A stretch of 64,000 bases of DNA. Source: Candidatus Adlerbacteria bacterium. GTDB lineage: Bacteria; Patescibacteriota; Minisyncoccia; Phycocordibacterales; SBAW01. The translations under genes were made by a program, and so were the position numbers. Positions 3,061-64,000 of this stretch are shown one piece after another (position 1 is the stretch's first letter; each line of letters starts with the position of its first letter). The notes below the pieces were generated by a model. The model worked only from the letters and a program-made list of their open reading frames with translations. It did no database searches and was not told the origin of the DNA. The stretch spans positions 19,178 through 83,177 of the forward strand of contig CAVVLG010000002.1 in the NCBI GenBank assembly GCA_963749085.1, given 5' to 3'.

Positions 3061-5751
3061 ATGCCCCCATTCAATCATTTCACCACTAAAGCAAAAGAAG
3101 CCGTGAGGCGTGCGCATGAACTCGCAGTTGAGCGCGGCCAAAACCAGGTAAGCCCGACACACCTTCTCGGGGCACTTTTGCTGCAAGAGGAATCGCTGGT
3201 CACCTCGGTGCTGGAGAAGCTTGAGGTTGATGTCATTTTGCTTACCGATACCGTGCTCGAAGCGCTCGAAGGCACCCCAGGAGGATCGGTTCTTTCTCCA
3301 TCCTACCAGCTGTATTTGACTCCCGAGCTGGTACAGGCGCTTGAGCGCAGCGCCAAAGTGGCGACCGAACTTCACGACGAATTCGTCTCAACCGAACATC
3401 TCTTTATTGCCATCCTCGACGTGCAGGGCGCCGCGCGCGATCTTTTGAGTCGTTTCCGCATCACGCGCGAGGCGATATTGCGAGCACTCGGAGAACTGCG
3501 CTCAACCAAAACAGCCGCAGCTACCGAGTCAAAAAAGTTCCGCGCTCTGCCGAAATACACCCGCTCTCTCACCAAAGCAGCGCTTGAGAATAAGCTCGAT
3601 CCGGTCATTGGCCGCGACGAGGAAATTCAACGCGTCATCCAGATACTCAGCCGCCGCACCAAAAATAATCCTATTCTCATTGGCGAAGCCGGCGTGGGGA
3701 AGACCGCCATAGCAGAGGGACTCGCCTCCCGCATCGCCATGGGCGATGTGCCGGAATCGCTTAAAGATAAAGATCTCGTATCGCTTGATCTCGGCGCCTT
3801 GATAGCCGGTACCAAGTACCGCGGCGAATTCGAGGAACGCCTCAAGGCCATCATGAAGGAGATAGAACGATCCGACGGCAAGATCCTTCTTTTTATCGAC
3901 GAGATTCATACCATGATAGGCGCCGGCGCTGCGGAGGGCGCCATGGACGCAAGCAATATGCTCAAACCGGCTCTGGCGCGCGGCGATCTTCACGTCATAG
4001 GCGCCACGACTCTCAAGGAATATCAAAGGCACATTGAGCGCGACCCGGCGTTCCAACGGCGCTTCCAGCCAGTCTACGTGCTTGAGCCGTCAGTTGAGGA
4101 CGCAGTATCAATTCTGCGCGGTCTCAAAGAGAAATACGAACTGTTCCATGGAGTCCATATCACCGACGACGCTATCGTGTCGGCGGTGCAGTTGAGTGCC
4201 CGTTACATCCCCGACCGATTTTTGCCGGACAAGGCGATAGACCTCATTGACGAAGCCTCTTCTTCTTTGCGCATTTCGCTGGAGAATAAGCCGCCGGTGC
4301 TTGAGGATGCACATCGCAGAATCATGCGTCTTGAAGTCGAGAAGGAAGCTCTCCGCAAAGAGGCACAGGGAGAAGACCGTACCGCTAAGGCGCGCACTAA
4401 GGAGATAGAGCGCGATATAGCAGAGCTTAAGGAAAAAACATCCGAGATTGAGATGCGCTGGAAGAATGAGAAGCAGGTGTTGGGTGATATTAAGTCGATA
4501 AAGAAAGAACTTGAGAGTCTACGGCTCGAGGCCGATTCGGCCGAATCAGCCGTCGATCTGTCCCGCGCGGCTGAAATACGCTACGGAGAAATTCCCTCGC
4601 TTGAACGCGAGTTGGAACAAAAGACCAAGCGACTCAAAAAACTCCAAAGCACCCGCCGCATTCTCAAAGAAGAAATAAACGAGAGTGACATCGCTTCAGT
4701 CGTTTCAAAATGGACGAGTATCCCTGTTTCCCGAATGCTTGAGGAGGAAGCAGAGAAATTGTCCCGCATTGAAGGAGAACTTGAAAAGCGGGTGGTTGGC
4801 CAGCGCGAGGCGGTACAAAAAGTATCCGACGCGGTGAAGCGCAGTCGCGCAGGCATAGCCGATCCCAATCGACCCATTGCCTCCTTTATGTTTCTCGGGC
4901 CAACCGGAGTGGGGAAGACCGAACTCACGCGTGCGCTGGCGGAATTTATGTTTGACGATGAAAAGGCGCTCATACGCGTTGACATGTCGGAATATATGGA
5001 GAAGCACTCCGTCAGCAAAATAATAGGAGCGCCACCTGGCTATGTGGGACACGAAGAGGGCGGGGCATTGACTGAGCTAGTTCGCCACCGCCCGTACGCG
5101 GTGCTTCTCTTCGATGAGATTGAGAAAGCACATCCAGAAGTATTCAACATTCTCCTCCAAGTTCTCGACAATGGATATCTAACCGACGCCAAGGGGCGCA
5201 AGGTAAATTTCCGCAACACGGTTATCATCATGACGAGCAATATCGGCGCGCAATATATCGATAAAATGGAGCAAATAGGATTCTCCGCGCACGGTGGCAC
5301 TGATGCGAGCAACTATATTATGGCTAAAGAGCGTGTGGAACAATCTCTCAAGGACTACTTCAGGCCAGAATTCCTCAACCGTATCGATGAAATAATCATC
5401 TTCAATATTCTCTCGCCCGAGGCCGTCAAAGAAATCGTCGGCATTCAGATCAAAGAAGTGACGGCACGCCTCACGGCAAAAGATATCACACTTACTATCA
5501 TGCCGGCAGTCTATGAGTATCTTTCCAAGGAAGGTTACAATCCACGCTATGGAGCTCGTCCCTTGCGCCGACTGATACAGGATAAAATTCTCACCAAAAT
5601 AGCCAGCCTTATGGTTTCGCGCGGCATACTTCAGGGGGGCAGCGTTATCGTCGATATGCACAAAGGCGAGTTCTCGTTTGATGTTAAAAAAGGAAGGAAA
5701 GGGATGAAAGTCACGCCGAGCGTTGCGGCCGAAGAAAAAGTCGGGGCCTAG
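3061..5751 (+). CDS. clpB: ATP-dependent chaperone ClpB (Clp_N domain, two AAA+ modules, long coiled-coil M domain)
   Basis: Clp N-terminal repeats. Walker A GEAGVGKT and GPTGVGKT. A long coiled-coil middle domain between NBD1 and NBD2. 896 aa. Confidence 0.9.
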
Positions 5752-9783: not shown

Positions 9784-10007
9784 TCTAACAAATTGTTATA
9801 AAAAAGAAAGCGCCCAACAGAAGTTAGACACGTTTTACATGGTAGTTGTCCCGACAGAGGTTGTTACAAAAAAGATTTTCCTGTTTGTCTTTACAATGCT
9901 CTCGACGGCCTGTTAGTTTTTGACCGTACTGGGTGCTGGCAGGTCCCCCAAAATTTTCTCACCAAGTGAACGGGCATTACTAAGCTCGTAATACACTAGA
10001 ACCAGTC

Positions 10008-10448
10008 TCAAAAATAATGTTTGAGTAATAGCATGATGCACGCGAGCTTCACGAAGGCGGCAAAGTTCTGCAGTTTGTATTCGTAGCGAGTCACGAGCTT
10101 TCTCCAGTTGTGCATCCACGCGAACAGCCGCTCAATCTTCCACCGGCGCTTGTAGGAGCGCAGCGCCCTGCCGTCCTGTGTTGCTCTGCGCACCCGGCCT
10201 CTGCGATGCGGTGAAATGAGTTTGATGCGGTATTTGTTCAGGAGCGTTCCATCCAGCGGATCGGAATCATATGCTCGGTCAGCCGTGAGGCGAAGCGGAT
10301 TCTGTCGGGTAAATCGCCGGGCAAGCGTGTCTTCAACCAACCGGACTTCGCTCGGAGAAGCAGAGGCCACATAGACGGCGACTGGAAGAGAGCCTTCGTC
10401 CGCAATCGCCATGATCTTGGTGCCTTTCCCACGCTTCGTGGGTCCCAC
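10008..10448 (-). CDS. IS5-family transposase, C-terminal DDE ORF. It is in a different frame from the upstream ORF, implying programmed ribosomal frameshifting or a pseudogene.
   Basis: ...RAYDSDPLDGTLLNKYRIKLISPHRRGRVRRATQDGRALRSYKRRWKIERLFAWMHNWRKLVTRYE is the DDE_Tnp_1 C-terminal signature. It overlaps the N-terminal ORF by ~210 nt. Its stop codon lies in the terminal inverted repeat. Confidence 0.75.
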   Translation of the reverse strand: MGPTKRGKGTKIMAIADEGSLPVAVYVASASPSEVRLVEDTLARRFTRQNPLRLTADRAYDSDPLDGTLLNKYRIKLISPHRRGRVRRATQDGRALRSYKRRWKIERLFAWMHNWRKLVTRYEYKLQNFAAFVKLACIMLLLKHYF

Positions 10449-10780
10449 GCCAAGACCCCCTTTTTTGCCCCCGCGAAGGTGGCATCGAGAAAGCAGCTCC
10501 TGAGCTTGATGCGCCCCCGGTATTCCATGTCCATGGCCAGGGCTTCGACGATGCGGTCAAAGGCGCCGCTCTCCACCCACTGCTGGAACCTGCGATGGCA
10601 GGTCTGGTAGGGCGGGTAGTCTTTCGGCAGGTGCTTCCACTGGGCGCCGGTCTTCAGTGCCCAGAGGATACCTTCCAGTATCTTGCGGTCGTCCTGCCGG
10701 GGACGGCCGCGGGTTTCCAAACGCTTGAGGGGTGTGACAAACGGAGCGATGACGCTCCACTGCTCGTTGGTGAGAGGCAT
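10238..10780 (-). CDS. IS5-family transposase, N-terminal ORF (HTH / DUF4096-like)
   Basis: MPLTNEQWSVIAPF...ILWALKTGAQWKHLPKDYPPYQTCHRRFQQWVESGAFD is the typical IS427/IS1031-group OrfA. Confidence 0.8.
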   Translation of the reverse strand: MPLTNEQWSVIAPFVTPLKRLETRGRPRQDDRKILEGILWALKTGAQWKHLPKDYPPYQTCHRRFQQWVESGAFDRIVEALAMDMEYRGRIKLRSCFLDATFAGAKKGVLAWDPRSVGKAPRSWRLRTKALFQSPSMWPLLLRAKSGWLKTRLPGDLPDRIRFASRLTEHMIPIRWMERS

Positions 10781-10854
10781 GGGCAGGCAAATTACGGGTA
10801 ACGCCCTGTGCCTTTAGTCTACAACGGTATTTTTGAGATTGGTTCTAGGTTCAT

Positions 10855-11112
10855 ATGAAGAAAGGACATCGTGTCGCTCCTGAGGTAAAGGAGCAGATTT
10901 TAGGTCGCATTAAAAACGAAGGGGTCTCCATTGCAGAGGCAGCCAAGGAGCACGGCATCACCAGCCGGATCATTTACAAATGGCTCGGCATGGGGGCGCA
11001 GGGAGCGCCCACCTACGGGGAGGTCTCCAAACTCCGCAAGGAGAACGCCGAACTCAAACAGCTGGTGGGAGAGATCACTCTCAAGCTCTCTGAGGCCCAA
11101 AAAAAGAAGTGA
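10855..11112 (+). CDS. IS3-family transposase OrfA (HTH)
   Basis: MKKGHRVAPEVKEQILGRIKNEGVSIAEAAKEHGITSRIIYKWL...leucine-zipper-like tail. Ends at the A_AAA_AAG slippery heptamer at ~11100-11106. Confidence 0.8.
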   Translation: MKKGHRVAPEVKEQILGRIKNEGVSIAEAAKEHGITSRIIYKWLGMGAQGAPTYGEVSKLRKENAELKQLVGEITLKLSEAQKKK

Positions 11113-11927
11113 GAGACAACAGTACAGTCAACAAGACCCTGCTCGCCAAAGAGCTTGGCGTCTCGCGCCGGAGCCTCTACTACTATGCAACGAAACCAGC
11201 CAAGGACTGGACGCTCAAGTGCCGCATCGAGGAAGTACTGCGGGAGTTTCCCAGCTACGGGCACAAGCGACTGGCACTCCATCTCAAACTCAACAAGAAG
11301 CGGGTGCGCAGAGTCATGCGGCTTTTTGGCATCAAGCCCTACCGCAGGCGCGGTAGAAAACCCAAGCGGGACAAGACGCTCTCGACTCGTGCATACCCGA
11401 ACCTGCTCATGGTCATGCCGCCGGTCCGTCCACACCACATTTGGGTCGCCGACTTCACCTACCTGCCATTCCATGGACGGTTCGTGTACCTCGCCACGGT
11501 CATGGATGTTTTTGGCAGGGAGATTGTCGGCTGGAGCGTGCTCACGACGCACTCAACGCAGTTAGTACTCGGAGCGCTGTTTTCGGCCCTGCAGCAGCGA
11601 CCGCCTCCAGCGGTCTTCCACAGCGACAACGGTAGAGAGTATGGGTCCAAGGGCTTCATCGAAGCGCTCACCCTCTTGGGTGTTGCGGTATCCCGCTCAA
11701 AGAAAAGTTGTCCATGGGAGAACGGGTATCAAGAAAGTTTCTACTCTCAGTTCAAGGTGGACTTGGGAGATCCGGAGCGCTTTGAAACGCTTGGTGAGCT
11801 GGTGTATGAAATCCATCAGGCGATATGCCACTACAACACGAGGCGCATCCATTCCAGACTCCGGATGCCGCCCGCAGTGTTTGCCGCCGCTCACAGAACT
11901 GCTACACTACAAGCAATCGTTCACTAG
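11109..11927 (+). CDS. IS3-family transposase OrfB (DDE integrase core), reached by a -1 frameshift from OrfA
   Basis: HIWVADFTYLP...HSDNGREYGSKGF...SKKSCPWENGYQESF is the rve integrase DDE motif. It overlaps the orfA end. Confidence 0.8.
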   Translation: MRDNSTVNKTLLAKELGVSRRSLYYYATKPAKDWTLKCRIEEVLREFPSYGHKRLALHLKLNKKRVRRVMRLFGIKPYRRRGRKPKRDKTLSTRAYPNLLMVMPPVRPHHIWVADFTYLPFHGRFVYLATVMDVFGREIVGWSVLTTHSTQLVLGALFSALQQRPPPAVFHSDNGREYGSKGFIEALTLLGVAVSRSKKSCPWENGYQESFYSQFKVDLGDPERFETLGELVYEIHQAICHYNTRRIHSRLRMPPAVFAAAHRTATLQAIVH

Positions 11928-11960
11928 GTGCGCAAAGAAAAGGGTACCTTGCACTCTCTG

Positions 11961-52811: not shown

Positions 52812-53156
52812 ATGTCTGAATTGGCAGATAAAAAATGCGTACCATGCGAGGGAAATGTCCCGCCACTTACTCCTGATAAAGCACAGGAGATGATGAAGGA
52901 ACTTCACGATTGGTCCCTTATTGATGACGCGCATTTGCTCGCGAAAAGTTTCCGCTTTAAGGATTTTGTCGAGACGATGGAATTCGTCAACAAGATTGCG
53001 GCTATAGCCGAGGAGGAGCAACATCACCCCGATCTTACGGTTACGTACGGAGCGGTCACTGTTGAACTCATGACGCACGCCATAGGTGGACTTTCGGAAA
53101 ATGATTTTATTGTTGCGGCAAAGATAGATAGACAGGATGCAATGAGGTCGATATAA
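52812..53156 (+). CDS. phhB: 4a-hydroxytetrahydrobiopterin dehydratase (pterin-4-alpha-carbinolamine dehydratase)
   Basis: ...KAQEMMKELHDWSL....FRFKDFVETMEFVNKIAAIAEEEQHHPDLTVTYGAVTVELMTHA. Confidence 0.85.
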   Translation: MSELADKKCVPCEGNVPPLTPDKAQEMMKELHDWSLIDDAHLLAKSFRFKDFVETMEFVNKIAAIAEEEQHHPDLTVTYGAVTVELMTHAIGGLSENDFIVAAKIDRQDAMRSI

Positions 53157-53305
53157 AAAAAGACCGGCCGAGAATAAACCCAGCCGGCCAGAAAAATAGC
53201 TACGGCTATAAGAATCAGCGCGGCGAACGTCAGTAAAAAACTACGCCCGTTCGCTTTTGGATCCCAAAGCCGTTCATGAGGCGACAATTCTGTAGAGGTA
53301 CTCAT
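53024..53305 (-). CDS. Candidate small single-TM membrane protein; its 3' end overlaps phhB antisense, so low confidence
   Basis: Good RBS GTGAAGGAATGTGCT-ATG. MSTSTELSPHERLWDPKANGRSFLLTFAALILIAVAIFLAGWVYS is a TM helix. The reading frame continues ~130 nt into the opposite-strand phhB, which is unusual. Confidence 0.3.
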   Translation of the reverse strand: MSTSTELSPHERLWDPKANGRSFLLTFAALILIAVAIFLAGWVYSRPVFFYIDLIASCLSIFAATIKSFSESPPMACVMSSTVTAPYVTVRSG

Positions 53306-53488
53306 AGCACATTCCTTCACATGTTGTGCCCTCAAACCGCCGGGTATTGATTCTATAGAGCGTGTCTGAAGTATCAATTAACAATTTTGTTGATTACCTG
53401 TTGATTCTATGGGGATGAATTGTGAATTACCCTTTTATGCCTTAGAGAAGTGGATATTTTGTGGATATTGACGTAGGATAAAAATCAA

Positions 53489-53564
53489 GGGCCCGTAGCT
53501 TAGTTGGTAGAGCGCCTCATTTGCAATGAGGAGGTCAGGAGTTCGAATCTCCTCGGGTCCACCA
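53489..53564 (+). tRNA. tRNA-Ala (anticodon TGC), G3:U70, CCA encoded
   Basis: GGGCCCG...CCTCA-TTTGCAA-TGAGG...AGGAGTTCGAATCTCCT-CGGGTCC-A-CCA. Confidence 0.85.
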
Positions 53565-53576
53565 TAGTTATTTGTA

Positions 53577-53604
53577 TTGCAATCACACACAAAAAATTTA
53601 TACT
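53577..53604 (+). promoter_or_regulatory. Sigma-70-type promoter candidate (TTGCAA, 16 nt, TATACT) directly after tRNA-Ala(TGC), driving the 157-aa ORF
   Basis: Hexamers read directly from the sequence. An RBS AGGAA lies 8 nt before the ATG at 53663. Confidence 0.4.
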
Positions 53605-53662
53605 GTTCATAGACTTGTTATCTCGTCGCGCTTGACAGCGCATAACCTAGAGGAATGAACCT

Positions 53663-54136
53663 ATGGCCCTTCACGCTGATGTACGTTTACGGAGAAGCGA
53701 AGAAACTATACAGTTTCCTATGTCAAATGGGAAACCAATGGACTCAATTCGCGGGCGAAAGCCTCTGCCCTTGGTGATAAGTGGCAAGGCAGGAGGAATT
53801 ACCATTCTCTACAGTTTTAATCGCTGCGGGGGACCCATCCTTGGGGAAGAGGCGAAGCAAAATGTAGAAAAGGCATTTACTGAATCCAGAGTAAATGTCA
53901 TGAAACTTACTTTTGCTCGTTACAGCGACGACACTATTAACTGTACCGCGGACCTCGCTGAATCTCACGCTGGGCTAGGGACATACCGAGTTCCACTCTT
54001 CGTGCGGGGCGATATCACCATGTGTTTCGAATCGACCGATAACACTGGGCTTGCGTTCAACCTCGTTTATTGTCTTTGGAAAGTTTTCAAGCCCAAAAAC
54101 TATGTTCTCGATGCAAGTTTTTGGCAAAGTCGTTGA
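53663..54136 (+). CDS. Hypothetical protein (orphan; island cargo)
   Basis: ORF with an RBS, followed by a strong terminator. No recognisable motifs. Confidence 0.45.
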   Translation: MALHADVRLRRSEETIQFPMSNGKPMDSIRGRKPLPLVISGKAGGITILYSFNRCGGPILGEEAKQNVEKAFTESRVNVMKLTFARYSDDTINCTADLAESHAGLGTYRVPLFVRGDITMCFESTDNTGLAFNLVYCLWKVFKPKNYVLDASFWQSR

Positions 54137-54141
54137 AGCTC

Positions 54142-54172
54142 GCGTCGGTCTAAAGACCGACGCTTTCTTTTT
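54142..54172 (+). terminator. Rho-independent terminator
   Basis: GCGTCGGTC-TAAA-GACCGACGC hairpin followed by TTTCTTTTT. Confidence 0.7.
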
Positions 54173-54202
54173 ATATCAATCTCCTATACAGTTTTTCCTA
54201 AC

Positions 54203-54276
54203 GCACCCTTAGCTCAGTTGGCTAGAGCGCACCCTTCACACGGGTGAGGTCGCAGGTTCGAGTCCTGCAGGGTGCA
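54203..54276 (+). tRNA. tRNA-Val (anticodon CAC), no encoded CCA
   Basis: GCACCCT-TA-GCTC-AGTTGGCTA-GAGC-G-CACCC-TTCACAC-GGGTG-AGGTC-GCAGG-TTCGAGT-CCTGC-AGGGTGC-A. Confidence 0.8.
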
Positions 54277-54328
54277 CCTCTATATTTAATTTATTCAAGA
54301 TTTTCATTTGTACGTATGATTATTTATA

Positions 54329-55054
54329 ATGGACTTCAAAACGGCTGTCGATTTGTTAAATAGGGCTCTTATGAAAAGGCAGCCCGAGCATTTCAGTAGC
54401 TCCTGGATTTTCAAGCACACGCCATGCGCATATCATTATTTTCGACTCAACGTCAGGGCAGTAACCGGCGAGATTGATTGGGATACCATCACCACAGAGT
54501 TGGATCGGCCATTTCAAAAACGATGGACACGACGCCGGCGAAAGCGCCGAGAATTGCTTAAGCTCTACAGAAGCAAGCCTGAAGTCCAAGCGATTTTCAA
54601 GAAGTACAAAAATCAGCAATATGTATTCCTCAGCGCCAAGACACCCGAGGAATGGCGTGCGAGAGATCGTATCAGTATTGCACTCATGCGTGTCGCTCAG
54701 AAAGGCAATATCACTGCACAAAAAGAATTAATCGATCTCCTTATCTACACCGTTCAAAACTGGACTGAGCGGTACCCGTACTTTTATAGATGGAAGCACT
54801 ATAGTGATTTGCTACCCGACCATATTGAGACCTGCATGCGACGATATCATTTCACCGGCTCGTTCATTCAGTATCTGTACATATCTTTGATGTACTCAGC
54901 CCGAGCGCTCAAACGCATCCAAGTGTATTCTCTCGACAAGCCAATTTATGACGATGACGAAATAACATTAGCTGAACGCGTGGTTCAAGATCCGACTACC
55001 GGTGAGATAAAGATATACGAAGCCGGTCACTTAAGCGACTATCAAAATCTCTAA
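54329..55054 (+). CDS. Hypothetical protein (orphan; island cargo)
   Basis: 241-aa ORF with a basic stretch RWTRRRRKRRELLKLY. No recognisable domain. Confidence 0.45.
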   Translation: MDFKTAVDLLNRALMKRQPEHFSSSWIFKHTPCAYHYFRLNVRAVTGEIDWDTITTELDRPFQKRWTRRRRKRRELLKLYRSKPEVQAIFKKYKNQQYVFLSAKTPEEWRARDRISIALMRVAQKGNITAQKELIDLLIYTVQNWTERYPYFYRWKHYSDLLPDHIETCMRRYHFTGSFIQYLYISLMYSARALKRIQVYSLDKPIYDDDEITLAERVVQDPTTGEIKIYEAGHLSDYQNL

Positions 55055-55130
55055 AAAAAGTTGAGCAAGCGCTCGACCCTTTTGTCTTTTGTTGTTATAT
55101 TTTTGGGGTCGAAAGCTGTGCGGGGCGTCT

Positions 55131-55191
55131 TATAGTGGCATTATACACGCTTCGGGTGCGTGAAACCCGAGTTCGATTCTCGGCGCCCCGA
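55131..55191 (+). tRNA. tRNA-Pro (anticodon CGG), atypical D region (short D-loop, no nucleotide 26), no CCA
   Basis: Acceptor CGGGGCG/CGCCCCG is a perfect 7-bp stem. Anticodon stem CACGC/GCGTG with loop TTCGGGT. T-arm CCGAG-TTCGATT-CTCGG. 61 nt to the discriminator A; D-arm pairing is non-canonical. Confidence 0.55.
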
Positions 55192-55206
55192 CAGGGTTTT
55201 CGACAG

Positions 55207-55277
55207 GGGCTCATAGTAAAGTGGTATTACGCGGCATTCGCATTGCCGAGGCCCGGGTCCGATTCCCGGTGAGTCCA
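55207..55277 (+). tRNA. tRNA-Ala (anticodon CGC), G3:U70, 7-nt D-loop, no CCA
   Basis: GGGCTCA-TA-GTAA-AGTGGTA-TTAC-G-CGGCA-TTCGCAT-TGCCG-AGGC-CCGGG-TCCGATT-CCCGG-TGAGTCC-A. The G3:U70 Ala identity pair is present. Confidence 0.65.
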
Positions 55278-55282
55278 CAAAT

Positions 55283-55311
55283 TTGACAGACATATAAAAT
55301 ATGTGATACAC
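55283..55311 (+). promoter_or_regulatory. Cassette promoter copy A: perfect -35 TTGACA, 16 nt, TG-extended -10 GATACA. It begins the conserved ~70-nt leader that ends in RBS GGGAGG
   Basis: TTGACAGACATATAAAATATGTGATACA read directly. The same module recurs at 55993, 56574 and 63775. Confidence 0.45.
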
Positions 55312-55378
55312 AAATAAAAGACATCGGACTTAGTAATCCGCTCGTTCTCACCATTCTAACGCGCCAAGGGAGGCGGCA

Positions 55379-55696
55379 ATGGCACTATCCTTCGCACTGA
55401 GTATCTATTTCACAGTCGGTCTTCTCTTTTCGGTTGGATTCTGGACGGTCATCATAAAGGCTTACGCTTGTGAAAGAAGCGAGGGGACACTCCATGCAAT
55501 ACAAGAAGAATTGAATACGCAATCTGCCTACCTCGACACTTTGTTGCAAGTGTATCCAGCCCTTATCCTACTGCTTGCGGTATTTACTGCCATCATCTGG
55601 CCTATACCATTGATGATAATACTGCTCAGCGTAGTAAAGGGACTTATAAGTGGACTTCGGACAGGCATTCGAGCACTTCTGGCAAGGAGACGCTGA
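55379..55696 (+). CDS. Cassette ORF 1: small two-TM membrane protein (105 aa)
   Basis: RBS GGGAGGCGGCA-ATG. Two hydrophobic helices. Followed by a terminator. Confidence 0.5.
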   Translation: MALSFALSIYFTVGLLFSVGFWTVIIKAYACERSEGTLHAIQEELNTQSAYLDTLLQVYPALILLLAVFTAIIWPIPLMIILLSVVKGLISGLRTGIRALLARRR

Positions 55697-55706
55697 AGAA
55701 TTTAAC

Positions 55707-55740
55707 AGCCGTCGCTGAAATATGGGGCGGCTTTTTCTTT
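55707..55740 (+). terminator. Intrinsic terminator of cassette 1
   Basis: AGCCGTC...GGCGGCT stem followed by TTTTTCTTT. Confidence 0.5.
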
Positions 55741-55997
55741 ATAACGCCACTTAATCCAATACCCACTCTGTGCCTCTTACACCAATTATCCGCTAAACCC
55801 CTTCAAGAGCTTTCTGTAACACCGGACTGCTCTGGTAGTACCCCAAAAACCGAGAAAGATACTGTTTTAACCTGTTCGAGGTATACTCCCCACGGTGGGG
55901 TAGGACACCAAACTCTCCAATTCCCGAATACTCGCTCGTATCTCCTCCTTCCACCCCAAAAGTTCTGAAAGCCACCCTATTTGCCCACAAATTTGAC
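55735..55997 (+). repeat. Cassette 3' module copy 1 (conserved core, a ~120-bp extra segment, and the tRNA-3'-end-like junction ...GCCCACAAATTTGACA)
   Basis: ACTTAATCCAATACCC...GGACTGCTCTGGTAGTACCCC-AAAAACCGAGAAAGATA is shared with the copies at 56405 and 57165. Confidence 0.6.
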
Positions 55998-56021
55998 AGA
56001 TATTTCAATATATGGTAAATA
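55993..56021 (+). promoter_or_regulatory. Cassette promoter copy B (TTGACA, 17 nt, TGgTAAATA)
   Basis: Diverged copy of the promoter/leader. A leader hairpin ACGGATT-TAG-TAATCCGT follows. Confidence 0.4.
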
Positions 56022-56085
56022 AATAACAGTTACGGATTTAGTAATCCGTTCGTTCCATCAATTCTAACCCGCATGGGAGGACATC

Positions 56086-56373
56086 GTGCAAGAGAATAAG
56101 TCGATAATTTCCCAGACTCGGGGAGTGCAGCTGTTGGGTTGGACAGGCTCTGTACTCGCGCTGAGCATGTATCTAAGCTTTATTGACCAGATTCAGCTGA
56201 ACATCGCCGGTCATAAAGGCTCATGGATTATCCCACTCATCGGTACACTCAGTTGTAGTGTCTGGACAGCTTATGCGTGGTTGTTAAAGCCCCGCAACTG
56301 GCCGCTTATCGTATGTAATGTGCCAATGGTCATCCTTGGGCCTATGACCGTATTAACTACCTTCTTCTGGTAG
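56086..56373 (+). CDS. Cassette ORF 2: small polytopic membrane protein (95 aa, GTG start)
   Basis: RBS GGGAGGACATC-GTG. Three hydrophobic segments. A terminator follows directly. Confidence 0.45.
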   Translation: MQENKSIISQTRGVQLLGWTGSVLALSMYLSFIDQIQLNIAGHKGSWIIPLIGTLSCSVWTAYAWLLKPRNWPLIVCNVPMVILGPMTVLTTFFW

Positions 56374-56379
56374 CACAAC

Positions 56380-56407
56380 CCCCGGCAGCGATGCCGGGGC
56401 TTTCTTT
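56380..56407 (+). terminator. Intrinsic terminator of cassette 2
   Basis: CCCCGGCA-GCGA-TGCCGGGG hairpin followed by CTTTCTTT. Confidence 0.65.
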
Positions 56408-56576
56408 AGGTCTCGTTACTTAATCCAATACCCTCACTGTGTCTCTCCCATAATTCTTCCATCAGGCGCTTTCAAGTGCTTTCTGCAGCGCGGGACTGCT
56501 CTGGTAGTACTCCCAAAACCGAGAAAGATAGGTTTTTAGGGAGTTCAATGTTTTAATGCCTGTGTCCACAAATTTG
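56405..56576 (+). repeat. Cassette 3' module copy 2 (~170 bp, ends GTGTCCACAAATTTGACA)
   Basis: Aligned by eye to copies 1 and 3. The terminal ...GGGAGTTCAATGTTTTAATGCCTGTGTCCA resembles a tRNA T-arm and acceptor 3' end. Confidence 0.6.
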
Positions 56577-56693
56577 ACAGACATATAAAATATGTGATAC
56601 ACAAATAAAAGACATCGGACTTAGTAATCCGCTCGTTCTCACCATTCTAAAGCGCCAAGGGAGGCGGCAATGGCACTATCCTTGCACACTCAT
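56568..56693 (+). repeat. Near-identical (~98%) duplicate of 55272-55397: promoter, leader, RBS and the first five codons ATGGCACTATCCTT
   Basis: Direct comparison shows one mismatch in the leader (CTAACGCG vs CTAAAGCG) and divergence only after codon 5. Confidence 0.8.
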
Positions 56694-57153
56694 CAACGTC
56701 AAAACCGCAACGCCTGAACCGATAGCGGCAATACACGCTTCTATCGCAATGCCACACGTGTATCGCAGACCCGTTTACGTGAATGGACGTCGCTATTTGG
56801 ACGGCACAGGAGGTATACCTTTTCCCGCGCGAGAAGTTATCGAGCGGTGGGGTCTCACCGGACTTGTTGTACTCGCTAATCAACCACGGGATTGGCGACG
56901 CTCCCTAAAACGTAAGCTACTTGAGTTTGGAGCAATCTCACTTCTGCCTAAAGGTCCGCGCAAAACTTCTCGAAAGCGTTTGGAAATATTTGGAGAAAAT
57001 CTGCAGTATCTACGCTCGGGCCGCGTTCCTTACCTGATTGTCTGGACTGACGATGAGGTAGAAATATTCGAGCGTGACCAAACCAAACTACGAGGCACCG
57101 CAGAACGAGCGGGGGAGTTTATGAGCAGTCTACTTGAACGTGCGGGCACTTGA
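56669..57153 (+). pseudogene. Patatin-like phospholipase, C-terminal half only, fused in frame to the duplicated cassette leader (an ATG...TGA mini-ORF, then an in-frame ATG at 56749)
   Basis: ...AAIHASIAMPHVYRRPVYVNGRRYLDGTGGIPFP... matches the patatin ASxAxPxxFxPVxIdGxxYVDGG region containing the catalytic-dyad Asp. The upstream half with GxSxG is absent, and the sequence before it is the shared leader. Confidence 0.5.
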
Positions 57154-57170
57154 GCCCGCACGTTTTCTTT
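57140..57170 (+). terminator. Intrinsic terminator of cassette 3
   Basis: GTGCGGGCACTTGAGCCCGCAC hairpin overlapping the stop codon, followed by GTTTTCTTT. Confidence 0.6.
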
Positions 57171-57337
57171 AGGTCTCGTTACTTAATCCAATACCCTCAC
57201 TGTGTCCCTCCTTAGGTCTCTCTGCTAAGCCCGCTCAAGCGCTTTTTGTAGAGCCGGACTGCTCTGGTAATACTCCCAAAACCGAGAAAGATAGATTTTT
57301 ATGGAGTTCAATGTTTTAATGCCTGTGTCCACAAATT
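57165..57337 (+). repeat. Cassette 3' module copy 3 (ends GTGTCCACAAATTTaaaa; the TTGACA is lost)
   Basis: Aligned to copies 1 and 2. The next ATG, at 57348, lies 17 nt after the junction. Confidence 0.6.
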
Positions 57338-57347
57338 TAAAATTCTT

Positions 57348-57863
57348 ATGACACTCACCACTCACGCATTGGTTGGAGCCGCCGCTGCGAGTCTTTTCTC
57401 ACAGAAACCGGTCCTTGCATTTGCGGCCGGTTTTGTGAGCCATTTTTGTATTGATGCCATTCCACATTGGGATTATCGGCCAGAGTCCATGATCAAGGAT
57501 AAAAATAATAAACTGGCGACGGACATGATACTCGGCAAATCTTTTTTTAAAGATCTGATCTTTATAGGAAGTGATGCGCTACTCGGGCTTGCCCTCAGTG
57601 TCCTTATTTTTAGTCTATGGCTCTTTCACGTGCCTATAGCCATAATTACCTTGGGCGTCATCGCAGCCATACTGCCTGACCCACTGCAATTTATCTACTA
57701 CAAAACTCACTCAAAGCTTTTGGAGCCGCTCCAGAAATTCCACGCGGTGTGGCTGCAGCAAAAAAGTCCCATAAACGTTCCGGCATGGATAGGGCTCGGT
57801 CTGCAAGCCCTGCTCGTAGCGACAGTCGTCGGCATCTTAAAGATAATTCACCCTGTGTTATAA
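57348..57863 (+). CDS. Polytopic membrane protein upstream of atpB (possibly YdjM/DUF457-like metal-dependent membrane hydrolase); function unknown
   Basis: MTLTTHALVGAAAASLF...HFCIDAIPHWDY... His-rich N-terminus followed by about four TM helices. Confidence 0.4.
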   Translation: MTLTTHALVGAAAASLFSQKPVLAFAAGFVSHFCIDAIPHWDYRPESMIKDKNNKLATDMILGKSFFKDLIFIGSDALLGLALSVLIFSLWLFHVPIAIITLGVIAAILPDPLQFIYYKTHSKLLEPLQKFHAVWLQQKSPINVPAWIGLGLQALLVATVVGILKIIHPVL

Positions 57864-63698: not shown

Positions 63699-63769
63699 GG
63701 GCCCATAGTATAGCGGTAGAACGGTTCCATGGCATGGAACAGGTCGGGGTTCGACTCCCCGTGGGTCCA
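63699..63769 (+). tRNA. tRNA-Ala (anticodon GGC), G3:U70, no CCA
   Basis: GGGCCCA-TA-GTAT-AGCGGTA-GAAC-G-GTTCC-ATGGCAT-GGAAC-AGGTC-GGGGTTCGACTCCCC-GTGGGTCC-A. Confidence 0.75.
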
Positions 63770-63774
63770 CAAAT

Positions 63775-63802
63775 TTGACAAGACCACATATATTTGTATA
63801 CT
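63775..63802 (+). promoter_or_regulatory. Promoter/leader module copy E (TTGACA, 16 nt, TG-extended TATACT) directly after tRNA-Ala(GGC); interrupted 18 bp later by the IS3 copy
   Basis: Same tCCACAAATTTGACA junction as the cassette copies. Confidence 0.45.
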
Positions 63803-63819
63803 GCAAGGCAGTTGCAAAA

Positions 63820-64000
63820 TGGCAGGTACCCCGAAATTTTCTCACCAAGTCGATGAGATTAACCGCTCATTTTTAGTAGAATCGAGGTATGAAGAAAGCA
63901 CATCGCATATCGCAGGAGGTGAAGGATCAGATCCTTGGGCGCATTAGAAACGAAGGGGTGCCGGTCGCGCAAGCGGCCAAAGAGCACGGCCTCCATGAGA
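63820..64000 (+). mobile_element. Second IS3-family element (left end, partial; diverged paralogue of the 9937 copy)
   Basis: Left inverted repeat TGGCAGGTACCCCGAAATTTTCTCACCAAGT, about 90% identical to 9937-9967. OrfA starts at 63889. Confidence 0.7.
63889..64000 (+). CDS. IS3-family transposase OrfA (partial, runs off the window end)
   Basis: MKKAHRISQEVKDQILGRIRNEGVPVAQAAKEHGLHE, compared with MKKGHRVAPEVKEQILGRIKNEGVSIAEAAKEHGITS in copy 1. Confidence 0.75.
   Translation, partial: MKKAHRISQEVKDQILGRIRNEGVPVAQAAKEHGLHE

What the first reader, a model, noticed from the sequence alone, without database searches (positions are those of the whole stretch)
53380..57350. tRNA-anchored array of promoter-leader-ORF-terminator cassettes between phhB and the atp operon
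Four real tRNAs (Ala-TGC, Val-CAC, Pro-CGG, Ala-CGC) lie within ~4 kb, each followed by an orphan ORF. After tRNA-Ala(CGC) come three tandem cassettes, each built as follows:
(i) a junction tCCACAAATTTGACA in which TTGACA is a perfect -35, followed 16-17 nt later by a TG-extended -10;
(ii) a conserved ~70-nt leader with a small hairpin and RBS GGGAGG;
(iii) an unrelated small ORF (a two-TM peptide, a three-TM peptide, and a patatin fragment);
(iv) an intrinsic terminator;
(v) a conserved ~170-bp 3' module that ends by regenerating the same GTGTCCA|CAAATTTGACA junction.
This modular layout, with conserved boundaries and variable cargo regenerated at a tRNA-like 3' end, resembles integron-like cassette capture or serial tRNA-site integration. 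No integrase or recombinase is present in the window.
Basis: seen in the sequence. Interest (0 to 1): 0.8.

Follow-up and report, generated by a model that had tools for sequence, protein, structure and literature searches.

The report
Integrase-less gene cassettes stacked at tRNA-Ala
Three small single-gene cassettes have been inserted one after another at the end of a tRNA-Ala gene in a Parcubacteria (CPR) genome. The conserved block that closes each cassette is the severed last ~35 codons of a serine-integrase gene, so this is serine-integrase site-specific integration, not an integron.

Summary
Three tandem units lie after tRNA-Ala(CGC), each built as leader, ORF, terminator and ~170-nt module. 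All are joined at G(T/C)CCAC-AAATTT, and a fourth half-unit abuts the 171-aa gene upstream of atpB.

Two close relatives (L005, L008) have the empty site, with tRNA-Ala(CGC) directly followed by that gene. A third lineage (L004/L006) has a different cargo followed by the same module. So these are insertions at the tRNA 3' end.

The new finding concerns the 3' module. Its minus strand encodes VDTGIKTLNSLKTYLSRFWEYYQSSPALQKALE*. Differences between copies fall mainly on third codon positions. This peptide matches the C-terminal end of 67 protein clusters, including C-terminal parts of large serine recombinases (P0166 has Zn_ribbon_recom). Homology starts at V-D, which is GTGGAC, the complement of the tRNA-end core GTCCAC. 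Each cassette therefore ends with the 3' fragment of a serine-integrase gene cut at its own att core.

In more distant Adlerbacteria-type relatives (L012, L019), full serine-integrase genes read straight into tRNA-Ala 3' ends.

It is not an integron, a MITE or a structured RNA. The acting integrase is not in the window. My best reading is integrase-less cassettes, mobilised in trans or decayed, stacked by serial integration. This is a new variant of a known kind.

The parts
55207..55278 (+). tRNA-Ala(CGC), the integration target. Its last bases ..GGTGAGTCCAC carry the core GTCCAC (55273-55278). This is the attL left side.
   Evidence: The tRNA 3' end is identical in L008, and in both L008 and L005 the tRNA is followed directly by the 167-aa gene.
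55279..55378 (+). Leader 1 (P' side). It contains AAATTTGACA with TTGACA as -35, a palindrome ACATATAAAATATGT, a weak TG-extended -10, a small hairpin CGGACTTAGTAATCCG, and the RBS GGGAGG.
   Evidence: No significant RNA structure.
55379..55696 (+). Cargo 1: 105-aa hydrophobic ORF with no family assignment.
55707..55732 (.). Terminator hairpin of cassette 1, shared by the convergent cargo ORF and the integrase-tail fragment.
   Evidence: z -3.0
55733..55988 (-). Module B: 3' fragment of a serine-integrase gene. The tail ..NRLKQYLSRFLGYYQSSPVLQKALEGV* has its stop at 55793-55795. It carries 87 extra in-frame nt (..AFRT..GEFG.. resembles the xYRT..LFEEFA motif of P0166/P0178). The core variant GCCCAC is at 55983-55988.
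55989..56085 (+). Leader 2, about 83% identical to leader 1.
56086..56373 (+). Cargo 2: 95-aa SemiSWEET-like three-helix transporter.
   Evidence: MtN3_slv E 6.5e-5, 23.3 bits against a 23.7 cut-off
56380..56399 (.). Terminator hairpin of cassette 2.
56400..56569 (-). Module C: integrase tail VDTGIKTLNSLKTYLSRFWEYYQSSPALQKALESA* (56462-56569) plus its conserved 3' UTR. The core GTCCAC is at 56564-56569.
   Evidence: About 78 nt are 100% identical to L004/L006.
56570..56683 (+). Leader 3 plus the first 14 nt of ORF1. It is a 98% copy of 55279-55392.
   Evidence: (D2)
56684..57153 (+). Cargo 3: 5'-truncated patatin-like gene (C-terminal ~157 codons). It is not translatable from the duplicated start codon.
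57141..57162 (.). Terminator hairpin of cassette 3.
   Evidence: z -5.7
57163..57332 (-). Module D: integrase tail VDTGIKTLNSIKIYLSRFWEYYQSSPALQKALERA* (57225-57332) plus 3' UTR. The core GTCCAC is at 57327-57332. This is attR, followed by AAATTTAAAATTCTT and the ATG of the 171-aa gene.
57348..57863 (+). Conserved 171-aa membrane-protein gene (B' flank) upstream of atpB. In L005 and L008 its homologue lies 21-34 nt after tRNA-Ala(CGC).
63699..63805 (+). Possible second occupied site. tRNA-Ala(GGC) ends ..GGGTCCAC and is followed by AAATTTGACAAGACCACATATATTTGTATAC, which is homologous to the first ~35 nt of the leader. An IS3-like element follows (OrfA start at 63889). The window ends at 64000.
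   Evidence: The relative L005 has GGTCCAC|CAATTTAAAGC at this tRNA instead.

Best explanation
The locus is an attachment site at the 3' end of tRNA-Ala(CGC), used by integrative elements of the large-serine-recombinase (serine integrase) type in Parcubacteria.

In this element family the crossover core (GTCCAC on the tRNA strand) lies inside the integrase ORF, at the codons V-D, about 35 codons before the stop. The P side of the element's att site is therefore the integrase's last 35 codons, its stop, its 3' UTR and a terminator. After integration this fragment sits at the far end of the element.

The window holds three such units in tandem. Each has the order core, promoter/leader, one cargo gene, bidirectional terminator, integrase tail, core. 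None carries an integrase body. They are integrase-less cassettes that entered by recombination at the core. The enzyme would be a cognate serine integrase encoded elsewhere (in trans), or one carried by ancestors that have since been lost.

Cassette 1's right end has a variant core and a longer integrase fragment. Cassette 3 was later damaged by a rearrangement that fused a second copy of cassette 1's leader and start codon to the middle of a patatin gene.

Each cassette is a self-contained expression unit. The promoter and RBS sit in the conserved leader, and the terminator is shared with the integrase tail.

**Shown:** insertion at the tRNA end; variable cargo; the modules are integrase 3' ends; the core lies in frame.

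**Inferred:** the enzyme acts in trans; the order of insertions; whether the cassettes are still mobile.
For: 1. **Empty sites.** In L005 and L008, tRNA-Ala(CGC)..GTCCAC is followed within 21-34 nt by the ATG of the 167-aa gene. In the window, 2.05 kb of cassettes lie between the same two features.

2. **A different occupant.** L004/L006/L007 have another cargo ORF, a terminator and the same module, ending ..GCCTGTGTCCAC|AGAAAACTT.., where the native spacer resumes.

3. **tRNA-end mimic.** Every unit ends with TGTGTCCAC (or TTTGCCCAC), against TGAGTCCAC for the tRNA end.

4. **Coding signature on the module's minus strand.** The stop position is conserved. Differences by codon position are C-D [2,2,10] (P=0.004) and C-L006 [1,2,6], with 9 synonymous against 3 non-synonymous codons for C-D.

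5. **Protein matches.** A profile of the three peptides hits 67 cluster representatives, 23 of them at E<=1e-10. The match is at or within about 20 residues of the C-terminus in all but one weak multi-stretch hit. The upstream parts are unrelated, and homology starts at V-D.

6. **Link to serine recombinases.** Hit P0166 carries Zn_ribbon_recom (4.7e-11) and the end of the Recombinase domain. P0178, P0163 and P0186 share that recombinase's C-terminal region. In L026 the tail is contiguous with such a remnant, and GTGGACAC is kept in an AT-rich genome.

7. **Full integrases at tRNA-Ala in relatives.** L012 and L019 carry full large serine recombinases (Resolvase + Recombinase + Zn ribbon). Their ORFs run straight into antisense tRNA-Ala(CGC) and tRNA-Ala(TGC). 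The junction in L012 is GTCCAC|ACAACG.

8. **Horizontal spread.** About 78 nt of module C are 100% identical to L004/L006, whereas the adjacent gene is 62% identical in DNA and 63% in protein.

9. **The cassette as a unit.** The leader abuts the core in all three cassettes although the cargo differs. This argues that the integrase-less layout itself is the propagated unit.
Against: - No recombinase that could act on this array is in the window. The rest of the 518-kb source contig could not be read.
- No full-length serine recombinase with this tail was recovered. The tail-bearing recombinase hits are partial proteins: P0166 comes from a 1.1-kb contig, and P0186 is a 5'-truncated remnant on a 2.2-kb contig.
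- Classical serine integrases recombine only attP x attB, so tandem stacking at the same site is not expected without an unusual enzyme such as Ccr or TnpX.
- The P' side of the cassettes is a promoter/leader, not integrase coding sequence. Their origin from an integrase-bearing element is therefore not traced.
- The inverted symmetry around the core is weak (p about 0.003-0.03) and absent at junction B.
- Only two occupied lineages were found.
Confidence: 0.68

Rival explanations
1. Decay products. Three full-size integrase-bearing elements integrated one after another, and each later lost its integrase body by deletion. On this reading the 'cassettes' are dead remnants and were never mobile as small units.
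For: Module B keeps a longer integrase fragment and a variant core. Cassette 3 is visibly rearranged and its cargo truncated. Integrase remnants with contiguous tails exist elsewhere (L026).
Against: In all three units the same homologous leader starts at the first base after the core. Three independent deletions would not end at the same nucleotide and leave the same promoter. No integrase-body remnant is detectable anywhere in the array by tblastn.
Confidence: 0.17
2. Local tandem duplication. The intergenic region upstream of the 171-aa gene was duplicated in place, and cargo was then replaced by homologous or illegitimate recombination (for example after natural transformation). No site-specific recombination was involved.
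For: Leader 3 is a 98% copy of leader 1 including 14 nt of ORF1, so local duplication or gene conversion does occur here. Gene content after tRNA-Val and tRNA-Ala(TGC) also differs between relatives although the terminator-proximal sequence is conserved.
Against: Module copies differ mainly at third codon positions, which means they diverged as parts of functional genes and not as neutral local duplicates. Each unit ends with a mimic of the tRNA end. Module C is identical over ~78 nt to a genome whose flanking gene is only 62% identical.
Confidence: 0.07
3. The conserved module is a stand-alone small-protein gene (35-46 aa) with its own function. On this reading it is a tandem paralogue family interleaved with accessory genes.
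For: The frame is open, the stop is conserved and substitutions look like purifying selection. Gene callers have predicted ORFs over it in many metagenomes.
Against: There is no conserved start codon or Shine-Dalgarno. In D and L006 only the GTG of V-D is available, and B has none. The parts N-terminal to V-D are unrelated and range from 0 to about 260 aa. The same sequence is the C-terminus of proteins with recombinase domains.
Confidence: 0.04
4. An integron-type cassette array (IntI/attC), or alternatively MITE/IS-derived mobile insertion cassettes moved by the IS3-family transposases present in the genome.
For: The layout of conserved boundaries and variable single ORFs resembles chromosomal integron arrays. 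IS3-family elements lie next to tRNA 3' ends in this window (tRNA-Leu at 11960 and tRNA-Ala(GGC) at 63770).
Against: There is no IntI, no attC-like fold, no GTTRRRY core, and the cassettes carry promoters. There are no convincing terminal inverted repeats, no target duplication beyond the shared core, and no dispersed copies in 64 kb or in the loci fetched from relatives. The leader and module are not similar to the IS ends beyond a 9-mer.
Confidence: 0.03

Closest known systems
SCC / pseudo-SCC composite islands at the 3' end of rlmH (orfX) in staphylococci, moved by Ccr large serine recombinases (my own knowledge)
   Same: Serine-recombinase family. One fixed chromosomal site at the 3' end of a conserved gene. 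Tandem stacking of several elements separated by short direct repeats. Members that lack the recombinase genes and depend on one supplied in trans.
   Different: The target here is a tRNA gene end, not a protein gene. The units are 0.6-0.8 kb with one gene each, not 3-60 kb. Each unit carries the severed 3' end of the recombinase gene. The host is a CPR bacterium. Activity is untested.
SSV-type 'suicidal' tyrosine integrases of archaeal viruses and plasmids (abstract of PMC7253208; PMC8371274)
   Same: The recombination site lies inside the integrase ORF. Integration into a tRNA gene therefore splits the integrase gene and leaves fragments at the borders of the element.
   Different: Those are tyrosine recombinases in Archaea, and the split is near the N-terminus and inactivates the gene. 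Here the family is serine recombinase in Bacteria and only a ~35-aa C-terminal tail is detached. That the crossover is inside the ORF is inferred from where homology starts, not shown biochemically.
tRNA-targeted genomic islands and tycheposons with tandem insertions (10.1101/2020.12.28.424599; Islander, PMC4383910)
   Same: Repeated integration at one tRNA site, with new elements pushing older ones away. Elements are separated by a partial tRNA copy. They carry cargo genes. Degenerate remnants accumulate.
   Different: Those use tyrosine recombinases with long (tens of nt) tRNA identity blocks, and each element normally carries its integrase. Here the identity is 6-9 nt, the units lack an integrase, and they carry a standard promoter/leader.
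Chromosomal integron cassette arrays (IntI, attI, attC) (my own knowledge)
   Same: An array of small, mostly single-ORF units in one orientation, separated by a conserved repeat and with unrelated cargo.
   Different: There is no IntI, no attC secondary structure and no GTTRRRY core. The repeat is about 280 nt, is partly a gene fragment and contains a promoter. The anchor is a tRNA gene.
CIMEs, cis-mobilisable elements formed by accretion next to ICEs in streptococci (my own knowledge; accretion also in PMC13651849)
   Same: att-flanked elements with no recombination genes of their own, in tandem with related elements and mobilisable by an integrase supplied in trans.
   Different: CIMEs are kilobases long, use tyrosine integrases, and are not standardised one-gene expression units.

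Membership tests
Integron cassette array | Adjacent intI gene (tyrosine recombinase) with attI and Pc | tested here: not met
   Pfam scans of 74 window ORFs (the 65 non-overlapping ORFs of at least 90 aa except four atp-operon ORFs, plus some shorter ones) gave no tyrosine recombinase. The anchor is a tRNA gene.
Integron cassette array | attC sites: imperfect hairpin with R''/L''/L'/R' boxes and a GTTRRRY core at the cassette boundary | tested here: not met
   The boundary is G(T/C)CCAC|AAATTT. Single-strand DNA folding of the junction gives z -0.24. There is no covariation.
tRNA-site integrative element (site-specific integration) | Empty site in relatives, with target gene and flank adjacent | tested here: met
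   L005 and L008
tRNA-site integrative element (site-specific integration) | Direct repeat of the tRNA 3' end at the distal border of each element | tested here: met
   TGTGTCCAC in C, D and L006 matches TGAGTCCAC at 8 of 9 nt. B has TTTGCCCAC. The repeat is short (6-9 nt).
tRNA-site integrative element (site-specific integration) | Element encodes its own integrase | tested here: not met
   Only the last ~35 (B: ~64) codons are present. tblastn with five recombinase queries finds no body.
Large serine recombinase (serine integrase) system | Protein with Resolvase catalytic domain + Recombinase domain + Zn ribbon | tested here: not met
   Absent from the window. Present in relatives' elements at tRNA-Ala (L012, L019).
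Large serine recombinase (serine integrase) system | The module peptide is homologous to the C-terminus of such recombinases | tested here: met
   Profile search. P0166 has Zn_ribbon_recom and ends with the tail. Pairwise tblastn E 6e-8.
Large serine recombinase (serine integrase) system | ~40-50-bp att sites with imperfect dyad symmetry around a 2-bp crossover; attP x attB only | tested here: inconclusive
   There is a weak dyad (arms of 19-21 nt around GTCCACAAATTTG, p 0.003-0.03) at junctions A/C-type and none at B. The crossover dinucleotide cannot be located from sequence.
Large serine recombinase (serine integrase) system | Recombination activity on these sites | not testable with these tools
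   Needs an in vitro or in vivo assay.
MITE / mobile insertion cassette | Terminal inverted repeats, target-site duplication, many dispersed copies | tested here: not met
   The TIR signal is weak and inconsistent. nhmmer finds module and leader only at this locus in the window and in no other locus apart from L004/6/7. There are no matches in the plasmid or phage collections.
Structured RNA (riboswitch, sRNA, tRNA-like, omega-RNA) | Match to an Rfam family, or a conserved structure with covariation | tested here: not met
   Only the true tRNAs reach threshold. RNAalifold on both strands finds no compensatory pairs. Leader fold z +1.3.

The most novel reading that the evidence does not exclude
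Parcubacteria may harbour a family of serine-integrase elements whose att core sits inside the integrase ORF. Integration at tRNA-Ala would then detach a conserved 35-aa C-terminal tail, making the integrase state-dependent or 'suicidal'. This has so far been described only for archaeal tyrosine integrases.

Alongside them, standardised integrase-less one-gene expression cassettes (promoter-leader-ORF-terminator-tail) would circulate between species and stack at the tRNA. They would form an integron-like gene-capture array built on a different recombinase. Resident tails could re-complete an incoming integrase gene.
Probability: 0.3. Interest if true: 0.8.

Novelty: new variant of a known kind. 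Interest (0 to 1): 0.6.

Why it matters
Mobile elements and routes of gene flow in CPR/Patescibacteria, which have tiny and largely uncultured genomes, are poorly described.

This locus gives a concrete, testable system. It has a defined 6-9-nt core at a tRNA-Ala end, empty and occupied alleles in relatives, and a conserved about 280-nt att-like boundary. It also has a recognisable protein signature, the LSR tail ..KTLNxLKxYLxxFWxYYQSSPxLQKALE, which already marks at least 67 protein clusters in metagenomes.

If the cassettes are mobilised in trans, this would be a serine-recombinase analogue of integron-style gene capture. It would also be a bacterial counterpart of archaeal split integrases. 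The enzyme and its short sites could be of interest as a compact integration tool.

If the cassettes are only remnants, the locus is an ordinary though neatly legible integration hotspot.

Tried and rejected
**Database scans that gave little or nothing**
- The genome-contig scan with the junction pattern gave only 3 hits. All were in unrelated taxa, none lay next to a tRNA, and all were consistent with chance.
- Viral contig scans with the module and leader patterns found nothing. The 18-mer junction gave 3 tRNA-less hits, consistent with chance.
- Plasmid and phage BLAST with the full boundary found no match.
- Exact look-ups of window proteins to recover the source contig failed. The cluster look-up gave no accession.
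- The word-indexed protein search with the 40-aa peptide found nothing. Only the exhaustive HMMER profile search did.

**Ideas tested and dropped**
- RNA-gene, riboswitch, omega-RNA or attC-hairpin readings of the module and junction: no Rfam hit, no covariation and no stable fold.
- IS3-derived cassettes: the IS ends are not similar to the cassette ends.
- Tn7-like ends: this resemblance came from memory only and was not pursued.

**Relatives that could not be used**
- Further relatives of the 171-aa gene (P0022, P0012, P0006, P0024, and the P0014 group) have a different gene order. They say nothing about this site.

Full report
**1. What is there**

The four tRNA genes are real. After tRNA-Ala(CGC) (55207-55277) come three head-to-tail units.
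- Each unit starts right after G(T/C)CCAC with AAATTTGACAG.
- A ~100-nt leader follows, conserved at 83-98%. It contains a -35 TTGACA, a weak TG-extended -10, a small hairpin and the RBS GGGAGG.
- One ORF follows, then a strong terminator hairpin.
- A ~170-nt module closes the unit (about 255 nt in the first unit). It ends again with ..TGTGTCCAC, or ..TTTGCCCAC in the first unit.
- The last module is followed by AAATTTAAAATTCTT and the ATG of a 171-aa membrane-protein gene that precedes atpB.

The cargo ORFs are unrelated to each other. They are a 105-aa hydrophobic protein, a SemiSWEET-like protein and the C-terminal two-thirds of a patatin-like protein.

The third leader and the first 14 nt of its 'ORF' are a 98% copy of the first. 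They are joined out of frame to the patatin fragment, so cassette 3 is rearranged.

The 38-nt module core occurs three times against none expected. nhmmer finds neither module nor leader anywhere else in the 64 kb.

**2. It is an insertion at the tRNA end**

The organism is a Parcubacteria/Patescibacteria member (names).

Two relatives with the same gene order carry tRNA-Ala(CGC) ending ..GTCCAC, followed after 21-34 nt by the ATG of the homologous 167-aa gene. The order is uvrBAC ... ddl, phhB, tRNA-Ala(TGC), tRNA-Val, tRNA-Pro, tRNA-Ala(CGC), 167-aa gene, atp. These relatives are L005 (GCA_028866155.1) and L008. The 2.05 kb of cassettes are absent from both.

A third lineage (L004 = L007, and L006) has a different upstream ORF, a terminator and the same module. 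The module ends ..GCCTGTGTCCAC|AGAAAACTTATACAGTATTCATG. This resumes the native spacer, which in L008 reads CGAAAATACTTTTCATTCTGATATG.

About 78 nt of that module are 100% identical to window copy C. The adjacent gene is only 62% identical in DNA and 63% in protein. The module has therefore moved between lineages recently, or is under extreme constraint.

**3. What the 3' module is**

No RNA explanation survived.
- Only the tRNAs reach Rfam thresholds, even in a permissive scan.
- Consensus folding of four copies on either strand shows no compensatory pairs.
- The junction does not fold as single-stranded DNA better than shuffles.

The minus strand instead carries an open frame with a conserved stop: VDTGIKTLNSLKTYLSRFWEYYQSSPALQKALESA*. 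Differences between copies fall on third codon positions. For C against D the counts are [2,2,10] (P=0.004), with 9 synonymous and 3 non-synonymous codons. For C against L006 they are [1,2,6].

A word-indexed protein search found nothing. An exhaustive HMMER profile search found 67 cluster representatives, 23 of them at E<=1e-10.
- In all but one weak multi-stretch hit the match lies at or within about 20 residues of the C-terminus.
- The sequence N-terminal to it is unrelated and between 0 and about 260 residues long.
- Similarity begins at V-D.

V-D is GTGGAC, the complement of the core GTCCAC.

Some hits are C-terminal parts of large serine recombinases.
- P0166 comes from a 1.1-kb contig, so it is probably cut by the contig end. 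It has the Zn_ribbon_recom domain (4.7e-11) and the end of the Recombinase domain, and it finishes with ..KTLNRIKNYLAEFWSFYQSSEKLQRALE.
- P0178, P0163 and P0186 share its C-terminal region.
- In L026 the tail is contiguous with such a remnant, and GTGGACAC is kept in an AT-rich genome.
- One hit is annotated from Candidatus Uhrbacteria.

Module B's 87 extra nucleotides stay in frame with the tail. They resemble the xYRT...LFEEFA stretch that precedes the tail in P0166 and P0178. B is therefore a longer fragment of the same kind of gene.

Each cassette thus ends with the 3' end of a serine-integrase gene, cut at the att core.

**4. Independent support from relatives**

In Adlerbacteria-type relatives the tRNA cluster Val-Pro-Ala(CGC)(-Ala(TGC)) lies near the same 170-aa gene and the atp operon. 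Full large serine recombinases (Resolvase + Recombinase + Zn ribbon) sit directly against tRNA-Ala 3' ends and read into the antisense tRNA.
- L012 reads ..SADVSLC|GLTGNRTRASAMRMPRNTTLL*, with DNA ..GTTGTGTGGAC|TCACCGGG.
- L019 does the same at tRNA-Ala(TGC).

The break in L012 lies about 177 residues after the Zn ribbon. The tail in P0166 starts about 166 residues after it. That these are equivalent positions is my inference, because BLAST does not align the intervening coiled-coil region.

tRNA-Ala 3' ends are therefore attachment sites for serine integrases in this group. In the integrated state the integrase ORF is interrupted at the core.

**5. Mechanism proposed**

*Shown:*
- insertion at the core;
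- variable cargo;
- integrase-tail fragments at each right end;
- one orientation throughout;
- self-contained expression signals.

*Inferred:* the cassettes are integrase-less units whose att-like site is tail + core + leader. A serine integrase supplied in trans would integrate them, and they would stack by repeated recombination at the core.

The third-position pattern among tails means the copies diverged while they were parts of working genes. They were therefore acquired separately and not duplicated in place.

The common leader begins at the first base after the core in all three units. This argues that the integrase-less layout is itself what propagates, and argues against three independent deletions.

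*Against:*
- No suitable recombinase is in the window. Scans of 74 ORFs found only IS3-family and IS5-like transposases at 10.0-11.9 kb and an IS3-like OrfA start at 63889.
- The rest of the source contig was not retrievable.
- Classical serine integrases do not use attL or attR as targets, so tandem stacking needs an enzyme with relaxed site choice, like Ccr or TnpX.
- The dyad symmetry around the core is weak.

**6. Comparison with known systems**

The array works most like SCC/pseudo-SCC composite islands. Those also involve serine recombinases, a fixed site at a gene's 3' end, tandem elements and recombinase-less members.

It also resembles tRNA-island and tycheposon tandems (10.1101/2020.12.28.424599).

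The split of the integrase gene at its own att site parallels the SSV-type 'suicidal' tyrosine integrases of Archaea (PMC7253208).

It is not an integron, because IntI, attC and the core site are all unmet. It is not a MITE or mobile insertion cassette. It is not an RNA element.

**7. Verdict**

The key addition is that the conserved 3' module is a severed serine-integrase 3' end.

I rate this a new variant of a known kind, with interest 0.6. The most novel reading not excluded has probability about 0.3: a serine-integrase, split-gene, integron-like capture system in CPR bacteria.

Noticed in passing
window 9921-11959 and 63771-64000: An IS3-family element (OrfA 10855-11109, OrfB/rve 11109-11927) ends directly against the 3' end of tRNA-Leu(CAA) (11960, minus strand). 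An IS5-like transposase (10011-10780, minus strand) separates it from a left-end-like sequence at 9921-9968. A second IS3-like OrfA, about 80% related, starts at 63889 just after tRNA-Ala(GGC). tRNA 3' flanks seem to be the general landing zones for mobile DNA in this compact genome.
   Followed up: partly
window 63767-63805: tRNA-Ala(GGC) ends ..GGGTCCAC and is followed by AAATTTGACAAGACCACATATATTTGTATAC. This is homologous to the first ~35 nt of the cassette leader. The relative L005 has CAATTTAAAGC there instead. It may be a second occupied attachment site later hit by an IS. The window ends before this can be resolved.
   Followed up: partly
L012 3221-3324 / 4787-4890; L019 1-98 / 1584-1681; L020 1-1679: In Adlerbacteria relatives the serine-integrase gene next to tRNA-Ala is flanked by 98-104-nt inverted repeats (96-100% identical). 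These begin at the tRNA-end core (AGTCCACACAACG...). One strand encodes the integrase N-terminus and the other its C-terminal region. L020 carries the gene body in the opposite orientation to L019 at 100% identity. The integrase gene therefore appears to be invertible while staying intact. Many contigs of this species break at the repeat.
   Followed up: partly
window 53565-55120 vs L005 7939-9777 and L008 1-911: Gene content directly after tRNA-Ala(TGC) and tRNA-Val also differs between relatives. After tRNA-Val the window has a 241-aa orphan ORF, L008 has a 71-aa ORF behind a TTGACA promoter, and L005 has nothing. The T-tract and sequence just upstream of tRNA-Pro are nevertheless conserved. 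The ORF before tRNA-Val (157 aa here) is a fast-evolving AdoMet_dc-like gene with an ESH motif in all three genomes.
   Followed up: partly
L005 9727-9760: A partial duplicate of the 5' part of tRNA-Pro (GGGATGTCTTATAGTGCATT..) lies about 50 nt upstream of the real tRNA-Pro gene in the relative.
   Followed up: no
window 53024-53377 (minus strand): A 117-aa ORF with a hydrophobic segment (weak Phage_holin_2 hit, E 0.017) lies between phhB and tRNA-Ala(TGC) and overlaps the phhB 3' end. A minus-strand terminator-like hairpin at 53189-53162 lies inside it. L005 has no counterpart.
   Followed up: no
window 55290-55304 and 56581-56595: A perfect palindrome ACATATAAAATATGT sits between the -35 and -10 of leaders 1 and 3, and is imperfect in leader 2. 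This is the usual position of an operator, so the cassette promoters may be repressor-controlled.
   Followed up: no
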